Source: a virus. From it: a stretch of DNA of 64,000 nt. A model generated the notes under the pieces. That model was not told the origin of the DNA and made no database searches. It saw only the letters and a list, made by a program, of their open reading frames with translations. Within the stretch, counting starts at the first letter, position 1; the number at the start of each line of letters is the position of its first letter. Made by a program: the position numbers and the translations under genes. Positions 1 to 34,558 of the stretch are shown piece after piece. The DNA lies in the IMG/VR virus record IMGVR_UViG_3300032236_001304, positions 1 through 64,000 of that record, one strand, 5' to 3'.

Positions 1-44
1 AAAACGATATGATTGAAGGTCCTTTTGATGATTTTGAATTATAA
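1..44 (+). CDS. 3' end of a gene truncated by the window edge
   Basis: Open frame ...NDMIEGPFDDFEL* ending TAA at 42-44. Confidence 0.4.
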   Translation, partial: NDMIEGPFDDFEL

Positions 45-57
45 ACATAAATAGGAT

Positions 58-195
58 ATGACAATACAAACTGCAATAAAACTAATCAATAAAATGATTA
101 AGATAAGTAAAGTCAATATACACGTTAACCTACCTAATAAGGAAAAACAAAACTTTACTATCCATATAAACGAATTGAAACCGTCTAACGAATAA
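58..195 (+). CDS. small hypothetical protein (45 aa)
   Basis: ATG58-TAA195, MTIQTAIKLINKMIKISKV...; below the ORF-track cutoff, on the same strand as all genes. Confidence 0.5.
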   Translation: MTIQTAIKLINKMIKISKVNIHVNLPNKEKQNFTIHINELKPSNE

Positions 196-510
196 CGGCG
201 TATCATTAAATAATTTCTAATAAAAGTGTTAATTATTAGACCGTATCAAATAACGGCTATAAGTGTATCATATATATAAATCCGTATATTGATATATAAA
301 GAGACAAAAATAAGGTAGTCCGTATAAGAATTAAACACTTTTACCCACTTTCCCCCACAATTCAACACACATAAGGGTTACAAAGAGAATAAAATAGATT
401 GAAAGCGTGTTAGAAAGCAGAATAGACCTTATCCATTCATTCAGTCGGACCGCAAAATTTTTTAGGGGATATTTTTACACACTTAGTTCACATAAAAAGA
501 TTCGATATAA

Positions 511-542
511 TTTGGCTGATAAATAATATTTTCGTATCTTTG
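511..542 (+). promoter_or_regulatory. Bacteroidota-type housekeeping-sigma promoter
   Basis: TTTG (511-514), 20-nt spacer, TATCTTTG (535-542); matches the -33/-7 consensus TTTG/TAnnTTTG. Confidence 0.75.
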
Positions 543-548
543 TATAGT

Positions 549-649
549 AAACGGGTTAGGACAGAATAATACAATATTCTCAAATGGTTGCTTAGTTACT
601 CCTTTTACAACTCCCTCAAATAGTGACCTCCTAACCCGTTTCTTTTTTT
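549..649 (+). ncRNA. candidate small RNA closed by a 13-bp terminal stem, with CU-rich anti-SD-like motifs
   Basis: AAACGGGTTAGGA (549-561) is the exact reverse complement of TCCTAACCCGTTT (629-641), followed by a T tract; begins right after the promoter. Confidence 0.5.
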
Positions 650-660
650 AAACTAATCGA

Positions 661-1020
661 ATGAATATAAAACAATTCAATAGAAATCACGCACTTAGAG
701 TAATGACATGGTGCAAAGTGAATGTGGGCGTGAATTACAGAAGGTCCTATTTGCCGGTCTTAGAATGGCATAGTAAAGGTGAAGACTGTGGCGATTATGA
801 TTTCGAAGATAATATAATTTCAGTTTATAAAAATCAGCATAATTCAGTAGTGGAAATTATTTCTACAATTATACATGAATGGTGTCACTATAAACAAAGC
901 ACAAAAAAATACTACGAATACGATGAAATTTTTGATTACCATGAAAATCCCTTTGAAATTCAAGCAAACGAATTGGCGGATAAATTGAAGTGGAAATGCA
1001 AAAAGGACCTGTTTCGTTAG
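661..1020 (+). CDS. HExxH zinc metallopeptidase-like protein
   Basis: IIHEWCH motif plus downstream NPFEIQA (probable third Zn ligand Glu). Confidence 0.65.
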   Translation: MNIKQFNRNHALRVMTWCKVNVGVNYRRSYLPVLEWHSKGEDCGDYDFEDNIISVYKNQHNSVVEIISTIIHEWCHYKQSTKKYYEYDEIFDYHENPFEIQANELADKLKWKCKKDLFR

Positions 1021-1224: not shown

Positions 1225-1245
1225 CTTTTAAAAATAGTTTACTTA

Positions 1246-1279
1246 TTTGCCTTTTGTATTGATATTTTTAGTATCTTTA
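1246..1279 (+). promoter_or_regulatory. probable Bacteroidota-type promoter
   Basis: TTTG 1246-1249 and TATCTTTA 1272-1279 (22-nt spacer) upstream of the 1327 ORF. Confidence 0.45.
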
Positions 1280-1326
1280 TGTATTGAGTTGAGAGAGAGA
1301 CTCCTAATATTAAAAAAAATCTATAT

Positions 1327-1698
1327 ATGAATAACAAAATGACTAACCAATTTACCGACATCGCTTATAATACAGCTCGTAATGAGAGACCTGTATATAT
1401 TAATTTTTCAGCTACTAAATTAAGTTCGGCGGTTAAACCGAATACGATTGTAGAATTTACCGATTATATGGGTCGTAAGCATAAGGTAATATGTAGAAAC
1501 AAACCTGAAATGTTGAAAGCTATGCAGTTTTTTAGTATGTTGAAAAAAGAGTCCGCTTTTATTTCAATTGTATTAAATGATTATCCAATGTATCGTACTA
1601 ATAAAAAACACGCTACATTAGTTAAGCGTGAATTGAAGCAGTACTTGAAAATGAGTCCTAAGCAAATTGATAATATCCTTTTAATGAATTTGAAATAA
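1327..1698 (+). CDS. hypothetical protein
   Basis: 123-aa ORF with A-rich leader. Confidence 0.7.
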   Translation: MNNKMTNQFTDIAYNTARNERPVYINFSATKLSSAVKPNTIVEFTDYMGRKHKVICRNKPEMLKAMQFFSMLKKESAFISIVLNDYPMYRTNKKHATLVKRELKQYLKMSPKQIDNILLMNLK

Positions 1699-2206: not shown

Positions 2207-2314
2207 ATGATAACAATTTTTGAGGCATTAGTAATATCAGCCATTACAATTATTACCTACGCATTAGTATTAACAATCAAACAAATTAGAGATGAGAAAA
2301 AAGAGATCAGATAG
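2207..2314 (+). CDS. small single-pass membrane protein (35 aa)
   Basis: MITIFEALVISAITIITYALVLTIKQIRDEKKEIR*; fills the gap between neighbours; not in the ORF track. Confidence 0.6.
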   Translation: MITIFEALVISAITIITYALVLTIKQIRDEKKEIR

Positions 2315-2609
2315 AAATCATTTAATATACGAAATTATCAATGTAGAAAATGGTAAGCGTTATATAGGTGTTACGCAATGTATAGGTAGAGCGTTTAACT
2401 ATTCAGCATTACGCCGTTTCCAAAAACATATGAGCAGAGCTAAGCAAGAGAATAAAGACTGGGCTTTGTATAAAGATATGAAGAAGTGGGGTCCTGATGT
2501 TTATGATGTTTACGTCAAAGATGTAGTGAGAGGAAAGAAAGAAGCACATAAATTAGAGACCTTCTACTTACAAAATTTTAAATACGAATTAAATTCAACA
2601 CATAAATAA
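2292..2609 (+). CDS. GIY-YIG nuclease-domain protein
   Basis: LIYEIIN...RYIGVT, R..H, conserved Glu and LN at the C-terminus. Confidence 0.7.
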   Translation: MRKKRSDRNHLIYEIINVENGKRYIGVTQCIGRAFNYSALRRFQKHMSRAKQENKDWALYKDMKKWGPDVYDVYVKDVVRGKKEAHKLETFYLQNFKYELNSTHK

Positions 2610-8945: not shown

Positions 8946-8983
8946 TAAGTTTCCATATATTTATTCCTAAAAGGAGTAACATT

Positions 8984-9112
8984 ATGGCAAAAGCTAAATC
9001 AGCGGGTTCGAACAACAAGGTTTCATTCGGAAAAAGAAAAACAGGTTCCGCACAGAAATCTTACAACAAACACAGTCCAAAGCCAAAAACTTATCGTGGA
9101 CAAGGAAGATAG
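8984..9112 (+). CDS. small basic protein ending YRGQGR (42 aa)
   Basis: MAKAKSAGSNNKVSFGKRKTGSAQKSYNKHSPKPKTYRGQGR*; AAGGAG SD at 8971-8976, ATATTTAT at 8957-8964; YRGQGR tail recalled from small proteins of T4-like aquatic phages. Confidence 0.75.
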   Translation: MAKAKSAGSNNKVSFGKRKTGSAQKSYNKHSPKPKTYRGQGR

Positions 9113-31442: not shown

Positions 31443-33473
31443 ATGGCACTACAACCGATAGATAAAAGTTGGTCTTCAAATAAAAAAGACATTAAATATG
31501 TAAACAGAGATTTTGCATCTTTAAAGCAAGCATTAGTTGAATTTACTAAAACATATTTCGCTAATACAAATAGTGATTTTACAGATGCATCTCCTGGTAT
31601 GATGTTTATAGAGCAAGCTGCGTATGTAGGTGATGTTTTATCATATTATACCGATGCTCAATTAAAAGAATCATTTATTAATGCAGCATCTAACTATAAA
31701 AACATTTTAAGCCACGCACAAAATTTTGGATATGTTCCTAAGATTAGTAGACCGGCAACAACTACATTAACGGTGTATCAACAAGTTCCATCTATAAATG
31801 TAGCGGGTAATTATGAACCGGATTTTACATATTGTGTTAAGATTAAAGAGGGAATGCAAGTTAAATCAAAATCAAATAACAATATTACATTTACAACAAC
31901 AGATGTAGTAGATTTTGGAAATTCAATAAATAGAACAGTATCGGTACTTTCATTTGACCAATCTAATAATCCTAATTTTTATTTATTAACAAAGACTGTT
32001 CCAGCTATTAGTGCAACACTTGTAACTGAAACATTCCCATTAGGTTCATTTACACCAAACCCTACTTTTAATATTGTAGATTCAAACTTTATAAAAGTAG
32101 TTTCAATTTCAGATAATTCAAACAATTATTATGAAGTTCCATATTTGGCACAAGAAATGGTGTATATTAAAGAACCAAATGCGGCATTATACGATAGTAC
32201 TTTAGTATCAGATTCGGATGTTACTCCTTACAATTTAAAGTTAATTAAAACTAATAGAAGATTTACTACAAGAGTAACCGATGTTGATACGATTCAATTA
32301 AGATTTGGAGCAGCAAGTGAAACTACGGCAGATGAAATGATTATACCTAATACTAAAAATGTAGGATTAGGATTAAACAATTCAATTAGTAGATTAGAAC
32401 AATCATTTGACCCTTCTAACTTTTTAAAGACATCCACATATGGTATTGCACCGTCTGGAACTAATAATCAATTGACGGTAAAATATTATAGTGGTGGTGG
32501 TATATCATCTAACGTAGCATCAAATGAATTACGAACAATATCTTTATTAGAATTTGATGAAGATTTATTAGCATTTAATACAATTACATCACCAACATAT
32601 CAAACAGCAAAAGCATCAATAGCAGTGGATAATTTAGTTCCTGCAACTGGTGGTAGAGGTATTGAAACATTGGATGAAATTAGAGAAAATGCAATTGCAA
32701 ATTTTGCATCACAAAATAGAGCAGTAACTAAACAAGATTACGAAGTTAGAGCATTATCGATGGATGCTGCCTTTGGTAGTATCGCTAAAGTATATGTAGA
32801 ACAAGATTCTGCGGCAGATATCAATCCAACACAAAATGTATTGAGAGATCCACAAAGTAGATCTGAGTTTCTTAATATGACAAAATCTTTGGTAGGAAAG
32901 AGTGATACTGAAATACAAACTGCAATAGATTCTTTCTTAAAATCCAAACATACTTTTAATGCAGATAATAACCCATTTGCAATCAATATGTACACATTGG
33001 GGTATAATTCTAACGGAAACCTTACAACGTTGAATAGCGCAACTAAAAACAACCTTAAAACGTATTTAAACGATTATAGATTGATTACGGATGCTGTTAA
33101 TATATTAGATGGATTTATTATTAATATAGGAGTAGAATTTGAAATAACAGTTTATTCTAATTATAATAAAAGAGAAGTAGTATTAAGTTGTTTACAATCG
33201 GTAACAAATTATTTTAATATTAATAATAGAAAAATAAATCAACCTATAAACATTAGTGAATTAGAATTAGAAATTGCTAATGTAGATGGTGTAGCATCCG
33301 TACCTAAAGTAAATATTACAAATATATGTGGGGATGGAACGGATAGTAGTTATTCTAAATATGTTTATGATATTACAGCAGCAACTAAGAATAAAATTGT
33401 ATATCCTTCATTAGACCCTTCTATTTTTGAATTGAAGTTTCCATCAACGGATATTAAAGGGAGAGCATTATAA
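31443..33473 (+). CDS. baseplate wedge protein, T4 gp6-like
   Basis: RDF..DFTDASPG..YVGDVLSYY..ESF; GG..ET.DEIR..QNRAVT..DY. Confidence 0.85.
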   Translation: MALQPIDKSWSSNKKDIKYVNRDFASLKQALVEFTKTYFANTNSDFTDASPGMMFIEQAAYVGDVLSYYTDAQLKESFINAASNYKNILSHAQNFGYVPKISRPATTTLTVYQQVPSINVAGNYEPDFTYCVKIKEGMQVKSKSNNNITFTTTDVVDFGNSINRTVSVLSFDQSNNPNFYLLTKTVPAISATLVTETFPLGSFTPNPTFNIVDSNFIKVVSISDNSNNYYEVPYLAQEMVYIKEPNAALYDSTLVSDSDVTPYNLKLIKTNRRFTTRVTDVDTIQLRFGAASETTADEMIIPNTKNVGLGLNNSISRLEQSFDPSNFLKTSTYGIAPSGTNNQLTVKYYSGGGISSNVASNELRTISLLEFDEDLLAFNTITSPTYQTAKASIAVDNLVPATGGRGIETLDEIRENAIANFASQNRAVTKQDYEVRALSMDAAFGSIAKVYVEQDSAADINPTQNVLRDPQSRSEFLNMTKSLVGKSDTEIQTAIDSFLKSKHTFNADNNPFAINMYTLGYNSNGNLTTLNSATKNNLKTYLNDYRLITDAVNILDGFIINIGVEFEITVYSNYNKREVVLSCLQSVTNYFNINNRKINQPINISELELEIANVDGVASVPKVNITNICGDGTDSSYSKYVYDITAATKNKIVYPSLDPSIFELKFPSTDIKGRAL

Positions 33474-34558
33474 TGGTATTATTTTATACAGCATCACAAG
33501 ATGCAACTATATATTTACAACAACCTTATCAAAACACTGGTATTGATGAAATGTTGGAAATATCTAAACAATATTACGGTGATACATCTGATATGAGTAG
33601 AGTATTAATTCAATTTGATAATATTGAATTACCAAATGTTCCATTTAGTGCATCATTACAATTAAAGATAACAAAGGCAGATGAAATTCCTGCTAGATTT
33701 AGTATTGAAGCATATCCAATTAGTGGTAGTTGGGAAATGGGTACTGGTACTCGTTTTGATAATTTAACTACTAATGGTGCAACTTGGATGTATAGAAATG
33801 GAGATGATACAAATTCTAATTGGTATACACATATGGATGGTATTACGGCATCATATGATCTGTATGTAGATGGTGATGCAAGTGGATGGGGTGGTAGTTG
33901 GTATACATCATCAGTAGTATCTCAATCTTTTAATTATAGATTAGATGATATTAATTTAGATGTTACTCAATTCTTTGAAAGATGGGCAGATAATGAATTA
34001 ATTAATAATGGTATTATACTTAAATTTCCAAAAAGTGCAGAAACTGATAATGTTGATTATGGTAGTATTAAAATATTCTCAAAAGAAACTAATACAATAT
34101 ATCAACCTAAATTAGTTATTACTTATTTAGAAGATGATGTGGTTAGTGGAAGTTTAACTACAATTACAGATTATGTAAATGCTAGTCAATATGATGTTCA
34201 ATATAGAGTGTATTCTCCTAATTTAAAAACAACATATCACAAAGGACAAAAGATAACAATAAAAATAGATGCAAGAGAATTATATCCAATCAAACAATTT
34301 AATTCTACATTTGCATACCAAGTTAAATATTACTTACCATCAACCGCATATTATAGTGTGATTGACACGGTAACAAAAGAAACCCTAATACCATACTCCG
34401 ATGCAAGTAGAGTGGTACAAGGTGAATATAACAACTTAATTAAATTAAACTTTAGTAACTGGCCTATTGGTAGAAATTATACATTATTAATCAAATCAAT
34501 CGATAGTGATGATAATGAACAAATTTTTGAAGTAGGTTCATTTGACATATACGAATAA
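33473..34558 (+). CDS. virion structural protein
   Basis: DATIY..NTGIDE..SWEMGTG..NNG..FSKET..PKL; follows gp6. Confidence 0.6.
   Translation: MVLFYTASQDATIYLQQPYQNTGIDEMLEISKQYYGDTSDMSRVLIQFDNIELPNVPFSASLQLKITKADEIPARFSIEAYPISGSWEMGTGTRFDNLTTNGATWMYRNGDDTNSNWYTHMDGITASYDLYVDGDASGWGGSWYTSSVVSQSFNYRLDDINLDVTQFFERWADNELINNGIILKFPKSAETDNVDYGSIKIFSKETNTIYQPKLVITYLEDDVVSGSLTTITDYVNASQYDVQYRVYSPNLKTTYHKGQKITIKIDARELYPIKQFNSTFAYQVKYYLPSTAYYSVIDTVTKETLIPYSDASRVVQGEYNNLIKLNFSNWPIGRNYTLLIKSIDSDDNEQIFEVGSFDIYE

What the first reader, a model, noticed from the sequence alone, without database searches (positions are those of the whole stretch)
511..649. Promoter-driven small RNA with anti-Shine-Dalgarno motifs and a 13-nt match to one phage RBS
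Seen: a consensus promoter is followed by a ~95-nt unit whose ends form a perfect 13-bp stem plus U-tract. It carries three CU-rich motifs: ACTCCTTT (598-605), ACTCCCTC (610-617) and ACCTCCT (626-632, the anti-SD core of the 16S 3' end). GTTACTCCTTTTA (595-607) is exactly complementary to TAAAAGGAGTAAC (8968-8980), the RBS of the YRGQGR gene. Inference: an early trans-acting sRNA that silences SD-led late mRNAs, or a mimic of the 16S tail. The latter matters because Bacteroidota ribosomes sequester their anti-SD using bS21/bS18/bS6.
Basis: partly seen in the sequence, partly recalled or inferred. Interest (0 to 1): 0.75.

Follow-up and report, generated by a model that had tools for sequence, protein, structure and literature searches.

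The report
Phage small RNA masking two start sites
An uncultured freshwater phage encodes a conserved, tightly folded RNA of about 100 bases whose exposed loop matches the ribosome-landing sites of two of the phage's own genes, so it most likely acts as a small regulatory RNA that controls their translation.

Summary
Window 548-649 encodes a real structured RNA. It sits behind a Bacteroidota-type promoter (511-542) and is closed by a 13-bp stem plus U-tract. A covariance model found it in 37 loci (29 distinct). 98.7% of pair cells are paired, and 11 pairs carry compensatory changes (0/500 shuffles). There is no Rfam match and no bacterial copy.

Only the first CU-rich motif is conserved: GUUACUCC(U/C)UUU, in the loop of helix P3. 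The second motif varies. The third (ACCTCCT) is base-paired and kept in 5 of 29.

The 13-nt match to 8968-8980 is exact. Genome-wide it is within chance (P about 0.38). For the loop against start regions it is not (0/2000).

Three comparative results support trans pairing:
- The 42-aa gene is the only strong-SD gene among 69 ORFs in the window.
- Its GGAGUAAC start region occurs only in the RNA-bearing clade (1 of the 80 best-matching loci, taken from at least 468 hits).
- In relatives, a second gene (cREC domain) carries the same motif, and there two loop changes are matched by two target changes.

Against: target 1 shows no compensation, it is already locked in its own hairpin, and no transcript data exist.

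Best reading: a phage trans-acting antisense RNA, analogous to P1/P7 c4, with terminator read-through into ORF 661-1020. The 16S-tail mimic idea is not supported.

The parts
511..542 (+). Bacteroidota-type promoter: TTTG (511-514), 20-nt spacer, TAtcTTTG (535-542). The predicted start lies about 547-549, at the foot of P1.
   Evidence: (15 such patterns in the window against 7.3 expected). TTTGG and TCGTATCTT are invariant in the alignment. The consensus itself is recalled, not tested.
548..649 (+). Structured RNA of about 100 nt: a three-way junction (P1, P2, P3) ending in a U-tract.
   Evidence: CM R1 scores 116 bits here. 37 hits, 29 distinct; 98.7% of cells paired; 11 pairs with double changes.
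549..561 (+). P1 5' strand. It pairs with 629-641. The 11 inner pairs are conserved and co-vary.
   Evidence: helix 1, 4 of 11 pairs with changes on both sides, 99% paired.
563..580 (+). P2 hairpin AGAAUA / UAUUCU, with invariant stem sequence and a variable loop.
586..628 (+). P3: stem 586-592 with 622-628, enclosing a 29-nt loop.
   Evidence: all 7 pairs of helix 3 show changes on both sides.
593..609 (+). Proposed seed: the unpaired, conserved loop segment UAGUUACUCCUUUUACA. GUUACUCC is invariant. Two positions vary (A/G at 594, U/C at 603).
   Evidence: (29 of 29 distinct).
629..649 (+). P1 3' strand (629-641) and U-tract (642-649): a terminator-like 3' end.
   Evidence: 4-8 T in the 9 nt after P1 in 29 of 29 distinct copies.
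661..1020 (+). 119-aa HExxH metalloprotease-like ORF. Its ATG lies 10-20 nt after P1 in every copy and it has no promoter of its own, so it is probably expressed by read-through.
   Evidence: Peptidase_M78 4.1e-3, below cut-off; phrog_87 3.3e-6.
8953..8987 (+). Target 1 start-region hairpin: CCAUA-UAU-UUAUUCCU-AAA-AGGAGUAA-CAU-UAUGG. It sequesters both the SD-like motif and the AUG.
   Evidence: MFE -14, z -3.4; conserved in 10 of 10 loci; AUG unpaired probability 0.01 or less.
8968..8980 (+). 13-nt site UAAAAGGAGUAAC, exactly complementary to 595-607. It covers the hairpin loop and the 3' arm.
   Evidence: (rank 1 of 91 start regions, -18.1 kcal/mol).
8984..9112 (+). 42-aa basic protein gene (ends ...KSYNKHSPKPKTYRGQGR). 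The only strong-SD gene in the window.

Best explanation
Window 548-649 encodes a phage trans-acting antisense small RNA.

A host-type promoter starts transcription at the foot of helix P1. P1 closes a three-way junction and, with the U-tract behind it, ends most transcripts. Some transcripts read through and become the mRNA of the metalloprotease-like ORF 661-1020.

Helix P3 displays an unpaired seed, GUUACUCC(U/C)UUU. The seed pairs with the start regions of two phage genes that carry the motif GGAGUAAC a few bases before the AUG. In this SD-poor genome that motif is otherwise absent. The two genes are the 42-aa basic protein gene (window 8968-8980) and, in fuller relatives, a cREC-domain gene that is not on this contig.

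Pairing covers about -16 to -4 (target 1) or up to -1 (target 2). It should therefore keep the 30S subunit off and lower translation.

Shown: the RNA's structure, its conservation, the seed, the complementarity, and the co-variation at target 2.
Inferred: the transcript ends, the timing, and the direction of the effect (repression).
For: Structure. Three helices with 98.7% of cells paired and 11 pairs with double changes (0/500 shuffles). z = -4.85.

Seed. GUUACUCC is invariant and unpaired in 29 of 29 distinct copies.

Target 1.
- Exact 13-nt complement.
- Best of 91 start regions in G000 and best of 97 in G003 (0/200 and 1/200 shuffled cores as good).
- Loop against start regions: 0/2000 shuffles reach 13 nt.
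- 8-13 nt kept in 11 of 11 genomes where both are seen.
- Only 1 of 69 ORFs in the window has AAGGAG.
- Among the 80 best-matching loci for the 42-aa family (at least 468 hits in all), 79 have ordinary A-rich leaders. None of the 80 shows the RNA. The one with GGAGTAAC is a close relative whose RNA region is off the locus.

Target 2.
- An unbiased start-region scan in G001 ranked the cREC gene first (-20.3; 1/200 shuffles).
- Its 9 closest homologues of 70 loci carry G(G/A)GTAAC before the ATG, and the other 61 do not.
- Where the loop reads UUGGUUACUCCC, the target reads GGGGGUAACCAA. Where the loop reads UAGUUACUCCUUU, the target reads AAAGGAGUAACA. That is two compensated positions.
- Own loop -20.5 against foreign loops -12.5 kcal/mol. 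With accessibility included, -10.

3' end. 4-8 T after P1 in 29 of 29.
Against: - No transcript data. The 3' end, the abundance and the timing are untested.
- Target 1 shows no compensatory change. The 8 class-2 loops (U to C) introduce an A.C mismatch, leaving 8 contiguous pairs.
- One relative (L162) changes GGAG to GGAA and compensates within its own hairpin. Its RNA is not seen.
- Target 1 is already closed by a cis hairpin. Repression by an RNA looks redundant there, and the accessibility-corrected energy is weak: -2.4 to -6.7, and positive for class 2 with the duplex chosen by the program.
- A whole-genome duplex scan does not single out target 1 in G000. G-rich coding sites score better.
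- A 13-nt match somewhere in the genome is expected by chance (P about 0.38).
- The target 2 co-variation rests on two lineages (G001/G002, and the contigs of L005/L006), so it is one evolutionary event at two positions.
- Target 2 is not on this window's contig.
- The RNA always abuts ORF 661-1020, so a cis role cannot be excluded.
Confidence: 0.55

Rival explanations
1. Cis-acting leader. The element is the 5' untranslated region of ORF 661-1020 and works as a transcription attenuator or protein- or ligand-binding leader that sets read-through into the metalloprotease-like gene. The complementarity to other start regions is incidental.
For: - The RNA was found directly upstream of that ORF in all 37 model hits. 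The 4 loci without a hit lack upstream sequence.
- The ATG follows P1 by only 10-20 nt, and no separate promoter motif lies between.
- The stem sequence of P2 is invariant, as for a binding site.
Against: - P1 is a perfect helix of 11-13 bp, far more stable than a typical switching helix.
- I saw no alternative antiterminator pairing by eye. This was not searched systematically.
- The most conserved unpaired segment is a loop, not a junction.
- The reading does not explain the clade-restricted GGAGUAAC start regions or the compensated changes at the cREC gene.
Confidence: 0.2
2. Decoy or mimic. The CU-rich loop imitates the 3' tail of 16S rRNA. It would titrate a host factor such as bS21, bS18 or bS6, or another pyrimidine-binding protein, and so change how the SD-blind host ribosome reads the phage's SD-bearing genes.
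For: - The loop shares CUCCUUU with the anti-SD region. The canonical core CCUCC is quoted in PMC9976891 (passages seen).
- The host phylum sequesters its anti-SD, and its one SD-led gene is regulated through bS21-free ribosomes (abstracts and passages).
Against: - The invariant loop lacks CCUCC. The only exact CCUCC (627-631) is paired and present in 5 of 29.
- Class-2 loops read CUCCC.
- The positions that vary co-vary with an mRNA flank (GGUUAC with GUAACC) that has no counterpart in the rRNA tail as I recall it.
Confidence: 0.07
3. A real structured RNA with an unrelated function, for example replication, packaging or defence evasion near a genome end. The matches to the two start regions reflect shared ancestry and the small sample, not function.
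For: - The raw 13-nt match is within genome-wide chance.
- Target 1 is invariant and explained by its own hairpin.
- The relatives are close (68-85% protein identity), so conservation alone is weak evidence.
- The RNA sits beside a conserved non-coding region of about 330 nt where many contigs end.
Against: - Two separate genes, about 45 kb and 7 kb from the RNA in G001, both carry the complement at the same distance from their AUG.
- Both gene families lack the motif outside the clade.
- The double compensation at target 2.
Confidence: 0.15

Closest known systems
c4 antisense RNA of phages P1 and P7
   Same: A phage-encoded small RNA acts in trans on the phage's own mRNA. Its recognition sequences are displayed in loops and pair around a ribosome-binding site to block translation. 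Loop and target differ together between related phages. Source: review PMC12197685, passage seen. The P1/P7 co-variation is partly recalled.
   Different: - No sequence or structural homology (no Rfam hit).
- Here the fold is a three-way junction whose closing stem doubles as the terminator.
- Here there are two dispersed targets.
- Host phylum Bacteroidota, inferred.
- No link to immunity is known.
C/U-rich-seed sRNAs that mask Shine-Dalgarno sites (RoxS/RsaE, FsrA of Firmicutes)
   Same: An unpaired pyrimidine-rich loop pairs with purine-rich ribosome-binding sites on several mRNAs.
   Different: - Those are chromosomal, have many targets, and work in SD-dependent hosts (recalled).
- The Rfam FsrA model matched only weakly, on the opposite strand: 17.1 bits against a gathering score of 80, E 0.34.
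- Here the host is presumed SD-blind and the regulon appears to be two genes.
rpsU (bS21) autoregulation through its lone strong SD in Flavobacteriales
   Same: A genome almost free of SD motifs keeps an SD on one gene (here two) as a regulatory operator rather than a general start signal. Sources: PMC9976891 passages and the abstract of PMC13000453.
   Different: There the partner is the 16S tail of bS21-free ribosomes. Here the best-matching, co-varying partner is a phage RNA, and the conserved flank UAAC is not complementary to the rRNA tail as I recall it.
Bacteroides base-pairing sRNAs such as GibS
   Same: Small RNAs of the same phylum that pair with start regions through unpaired segments. 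Source: PMC7366714, listing and abstract only.
   Different: Those are chromosomal and not related in sequence (no Rfam hit). None is reported from a phage in the searches.

Membership tests
Trans-acting base-pairing sRNA (c4-like antisense regulator) | Own promoter and intrinsic terminator that delimit a short transcript | tested here: met
   By sequence only. TTTG-N20-TAtcTTTG at 511-542, conserved. P1 plus 4-8 T in 29 of 29. The transcript itself was not observed.
Trans-acting base-pairing sRNA (c4-like antisense regulator) | Conserved, unpaired seed | tested here: met
   GUUACUCC is invariant in the P3 loop in 29 of 29 distinct copies.
Trans-acting base-pairing sRNA (c4-like antisense regulator) | Complementarity to target start regions that is conserved and co-varies | tested here: met
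   Target 1: 8-13 nt in 11 of 11 genomes, with no compensation. Target 2: two compensated positions across two lineages. A modest sample.
Trans-acting base-pairing sRNA (c4-like antisense regulator) | Discrete stable transcript and seed-dependent change in target expression | not testable with these tools
   No RNA run was available to test this, and no host is known.
Any curated RNA family (Rfam 15) | Score at or above the family's gathering threshold | tested here: not met
   0 hits in the whole window. The best weak hits in 380-760 are 17-18 bits against gathering scores of 35-80.
Riboswitch or transcription attenuator | Mutually exclusive terminator and antiterminator folds, with a conserved ligand-pocket junction | tested here: inconclusive
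   P1 is a perfect 11-13 bp helix. The junctions are short and only partly conserved. No alternative fold was noticed, but no systematic search was made.
16S rRNA 3'-tail (anti-SD) mimic | Exposed, conserved CCUCC core with its tail context | tested here: not met
   CCUCC at 627-631 is paired and kept in 5 of 29. The exposed invariant loop reads CUCC(U/C)UUU. The core sequence is taken from PMC9976891.
tRNA, tmRNA or tRNA-like element | Cloverleaf recognised by ARAGORN | tested here: not met
   0 genes in the window.

The most novel reading that the evidence does not exclude
In a host whose ribosomes cannot read Shine-Dalgarno motifs, this phage clade may have re-purposed SD-like sequences as private operators for its own small RNA. 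The motif GGAGUAAC would then be an address for the RNA, not for the ribosome.

At the 42-aa gene the RNA would invade a hairpin that buries the AUG, entering through the AAA loop. It would act as a switch that can open the start region as well as mask it, or it would compete with bS21-free ribosomes for that site. Phage gene expression would then be tied to the state of the host's anti-SD sequestration.
Probability: 0.15. Interest if true: 0.8.

Novelty: new member of a known kind. Interest (0 to 1): 0.6.

Why it matters
Regulatory RNAs of phages are known almost only from phages of Proteobacteria and Firmicutes. Three full-text searches turned up none from a phage of Bacteroidota. That phylum starts translation without Shine-Dalgarno pairing.

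This element offers:
- a well-supported new RNA family (29 variants, three co-varying helices);
- a short, testable target list of two genes;
- a natural pair of seed and target variants that predicts the outcome of compensatory-mutation tests.

It also raises a question: why do two otherwise ordinary, widespread phage genes acquire an SD-like, RNA-addressable start region in just this clade? Answering it may show how large freshwater phages time the expression of their genes.

Tried and rejected
- Rfam at gathering level on the whole window and at E up to 10 on 380-760: nothing credible.
- ARAGORN: no tRNA.
- The sigma-70 and terminator scan is not suited to this phylum and missed P1, because its loop limit is 8 nt.
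- Phage GenBank blastn of 400-1100: no match.
- Pattern scan of bacterial and archaeal genomes: 0 hits, so no sign of a host or prophage copy.
- The look-up of sequencing runs: no RNA holder listed.
- Whole-genome RNAduplex scan with the full P3 loop: dominated by G-rich coding sites. Not specific.
- RNAcofold of the RNA with the start region gave no intermolecular pairs. I reject this as evidence, because cofold cannot represent pairing between two closed loops. I replaced it with duplex plus opening energies. Those are themselves rough, because the duplex program extended into the P3 stem.
- Consensus fold of the conserved region upstream of the promoter: -3.55 kcal/mol, no convincing structure.
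- Identity of the 42-aa protein: no hit in Pfam, PHROGs or NCBIfam. The PDB profile search gave only chance-level MADS-box matches (E 0.13).
- Neighbours of the cREC gene: a cupin and a ferredoxin-like ORF. No functional lead.
- Pattern AAGGAGTAAC...ATGGCNAA in viral contigs: too generic.
- One hit (L369) is not a start region and was dropped from the counts.
- The covariance-model search of the contigs holding L183-L186 and L189 found nothing. These are fragments that need not cover the RNA region, so this says nothing about absence.
- Supplementary files of the bS21 papers (rpsU SD alignments) could not be seen. They might allow a comparison of host rpsU start regions with the seed.
- Structure prediction, fold search, complex prediction, the two large protein searches and the protein atlas were not used.

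Full report
**What the window is.** The window is the first 64 kb of an 88,442-base IMG/VR viral contig, estimated 41% complete. Genes run almost entirely on the + strand: 68 of 69 crude ORFs. Their leaders are A/T-rich and lack Shine-Dalgarno (SD) motifs. TTTG-N17-23-TAnnTTTG promoter patterns are enriched (15 against 7.3 expected). Both features point to a Bacteroidota host. That inference rests on recalled consensus and agrees with earlier notes e1-6115608 and e1-6115593.

**Checking the observation.**
- Promoter boxes at 511-514 and 535-542.
- A perfect 13-bp stem, 549-561 with 629-641.
- A U-tract at 642-649.
- Three CU-rich motifs, and the exact 13-nt reverse complement between 595-607 and 8968-8980.

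The RNA folds into a three-way junction at -27.5 kcal/mol, z = -4.85.

**Is it a real RNA?** The downstream 119-aa ORF has 11 relatives in viral contigs and 35 in metagenome contigs. A covariance model built from 9 copies found the element in 37 of 41 sources searched, giving 29 distinct sequences. It is always directly upstream of that ORF. The four loci without a hit have 61 nt or less of upstream sequence.

On the model-fitted alignment, 98.7% of 632 cells are standard pairs. Eleven of 23 pairs show changes on both sides, against a shuffled mean of 7.6. The covariation score is 0.295 against 0.146. For each of these measures, 0 of 500 shuffles reach the observed value. Sliding the 3' partners drops pairing to 33-49%. 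The alignment was fitted to the structure, which favours it. But an independent MAFFT/RNAalifold run gave the same three helices.
- P1 (11 conserved pairs) and P3 (7 pairs, all co-varying) are well supported.
- P2 never varies in stem sequence.

Rfam has no match. There is no tRNA, no paralogue in the window and no copy in 185,579 bacterial and archaeal species genomes by a strict pattern. This is a new, phage-restricted RNA family.

**Which parts are conserved.** GUUACUCC lies at the 5' side of the P3 loop and is invariant in 29 of 29. Two flanking positions vary: UAG or UGG before it, and CCU or CCC after it. The haplotype counts are AG/U 19, GG/C 8, GG/U 1 and AG/C 1. The third motif, the only one with the true anti-SD core CCUCC, is base-paired in P3/P1 and kept in 5 of 29. 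The 9 nt after P1 hold 4-8 T in all 29. The ATG of the next ORF follows P1 by 10-20 nt.

**Is the 13-nt match more than chance?** Taken alone, no. In 2000 dinucleotide shuffles of the RNA, 38% have a complementary match of 13 nt or more somewhere on the sense strand of the contig. Against the 90 start regions the figure is 3.25%. For the 18-nt loop against start regions it is 0 of 2000. The last test was framed after seeing the data. An energy scan of the 19-nt loop core against all start regions ranks the 42-aa gene first in this genome (-18.1 kcal/mol; next best -12.9; 0 of 200 shuffled cores as good). It is also first in relative G003.

**The target is peculiar.** Of 69 ORFs in the window, only the 42-aa gene has AAGGAG. 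Its protein family is very widespread: at least 468 tblastn hits in IMG/VR. Among the 80 best-matching loci, 79 have ordinary A-rich leaders, and none of the 80 shows the RNA. The single exception (L153) is a near-twin of relative G003 whose RNA region lies off the locus.

The SD-type start region is found in 17 true IMG/VR contigs, all of this clade. In the 11 genomes where RNA and target can both be read, the exact complement is 13 nt (2 genomes), 11 nt (4) or 8 nt (5). The 8-nt cases are the class-2 loops. There the U-to-C change creates an A.C mismatch that the target does not compensate.

The start region is itself a conserved hairpin. It buries both the SD-like arm and the AUG: MFE -14, z -3.4, AUG unpaired probability 0.01 or less. 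One relative (L162) changes both arms together and weakens the match to the seed. Target 1 is therefore constrained mainly by its own fold. With opening costs included, pairing with the RNA is only mildly favourable: -2.4 to -6.7 kcal/mol for class-1 loops.

**A second target, found without looking for it.** In relative G001, which has a class-2 loop, the top-ranked start region was not the 42-aa gene. It was a 145-aa gene (-20.3; 1 of 200 shuffled cores as good). That gene encodes a cREC_REC domain (PF20274, 9.5e-22). It sits directly after an intrinsic terminator.

Seventy homologous loci were fetched. The nine closest carry G(G/A)GTAAC just before the ATG, and the other 61 do not.
- In the contigs of L005 and L006, the loop reads UAGUUACUCCUUU and the site reads AAAGGAGUAACA (11 pairs).
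- In G001 and G002, the loop reads UUGGUUACUCCC and the site reads GGGGGUAACCAA (12 pairs, one G.U).

Both loop changes (A to G and U to C) face complementary target changes (A to C and A to G). The G001 site prefers its own loop by 8 kcal/mol, -20.5 against -12.5. With accessibility included the value is about -10. This is the strongest evidence for pairing in trans. It comes from only two lineages, and the gene is not on this window's contig.

**Mechanism.** The RNA most likely starts at the foot of P1 and ends at the U-tract, giving a closed, nuclease-resistant molecule that displays its seed in the P3 loop. The seed covers -16 to -4 of target 1, and reaches -1 of target 2. That should exclude the 30S subunit. 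Repression is therefore the default reading (inferred).

ORF 661-1020 is a small HExxH protein (phrog_87 metallo-protease 3.3e-6; Peptidase_M78 below cut-off). It has no promoter motif of its own, so it would depend on terminator read-through. The element can thus be both a small RNA and a leader.

Many contigs end within 900 nt upstream of the RNA: 15 of 29 distinct loci. The region between is conserved non-coding DNA. The RNA may therefore lie near a genome end, which would fit early expression. This is conjecture.

**Rivals.**
- A purely cis attenuator explains the adjacency but not the two clade-restricted, co-varying targets.
- A 16S-tail mimic is contradicted by the loss of CCUCC and by co-variation in a flank unrelated to the rRNA.
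- Coincidence remains possible, given close relatives and few lineages.

**Comparison with known systems.** In function it resembles the c4 antisense RNA of P1/P7: loop-displayed recognition elements that pair around a ribosome-binding site of the phage's own mRNA (review PMC12197685, passage). It also resembles C/U-rich-seed sRNAs of Firmicutes (recalled). It is not homologous to any curated family.

The context echoes the lone strong SD of rpsU in Flavobacteriales, which serves regulation through bS21-free ribosomes (PMC9976891 passages; abstracts). Here the co-varying partner is an RNA. Three full-text searches listed no small RNA from a Bacteroidota phage.

**Verdict.** The structured RNA is certain. 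The trans-acting reading is the best supported, at about 0.55. The claims of several anti-SD motifs, many SD-led late genes and rRNA mimicry are not supported. Expression data are missing.

Noticed in passing
window 200-510 (invariant core GTCGGACCGCAAAATTTTTTAG at 444-465): A non-coding region of about 330 nt just upstream of the RNA's promoter is conserved across relatives, with several invariant blocks (GTATCAAAT, TATTGATA, CCCACAA, AAGGGTTACAAAGA). Its consensus fold is weak (-3.55 kcal/mol), so it may work at the DNA level, for example as an origin, in packaging or as operator sites.
   Followed up: partly
window 1-547; loci L002, L004, L007, L011, L032, L039, L041, L043, L055: Assemblies often break just upstream of the RNA. 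In 15 of 29 distinct loci the RNA lies within 900 nt of the locus start, and this window's contig starts 547 nt before it. This may mark a genome terminus or a repeat.
   Followed up: no
window 8984-9112: The 42-aa basic protein (MAK...FGKRK.GSA.KSYNKH.P.PK.YRGQGR) belongs to a very widespread phage family, with at least 468 hits in IMG/VR, in otherwise unrelated contigs. It has no Pfam, PHROG, NCBIfam or PDB relative. Function unknown.
   Followed up: partly
window 8953-8987: The start region of the 42-aa gene is a conserved hairpin with a 3x3 internal loop that pairs the AUG (UAUGG with CCAUA) and the SD-like arm. One relative (L162) changes both arms together.
   Followed up: yes
L181 1430-1938 (relative G001): A cREC_REC (cyclic-phosphate processing receiver) gene starts about 20 nt after a strong intrinsic terminator (GGGGAUAA-GAAA-UUAUCCCC plus U6), with no room for a promoter. 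It must rely on read-through.
   Followed up: partly
window 661-1020: A small 119-aa protein with an invariant HEWxH motif, weakly similar to ImmA/IrrE (M78) metalloproteases and to phrog_87. It is always coupled to the RNA.
   Followed up: partly
window 1239-1330: A second promoter-like site (TTTG ... TAtcTTTA) precedes ORF 1327-1698. The early-looking small genes here seem to have individual host-type promoters.
   Followed up: no
window 2292-2609: A 105-aa GIY-YIG nuclease-like ORF (PF01541, 1.1e-4), perhaps a homing endonuclease.
   Followed up: no
window 33440-33475: ORF 33473-34558 has AAAGGGAGAG before its ATG. It is the second-best start-region match to the loop core in this genome (-12.9 kcal/mol), much weaker than target 1.
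   Followed up: no
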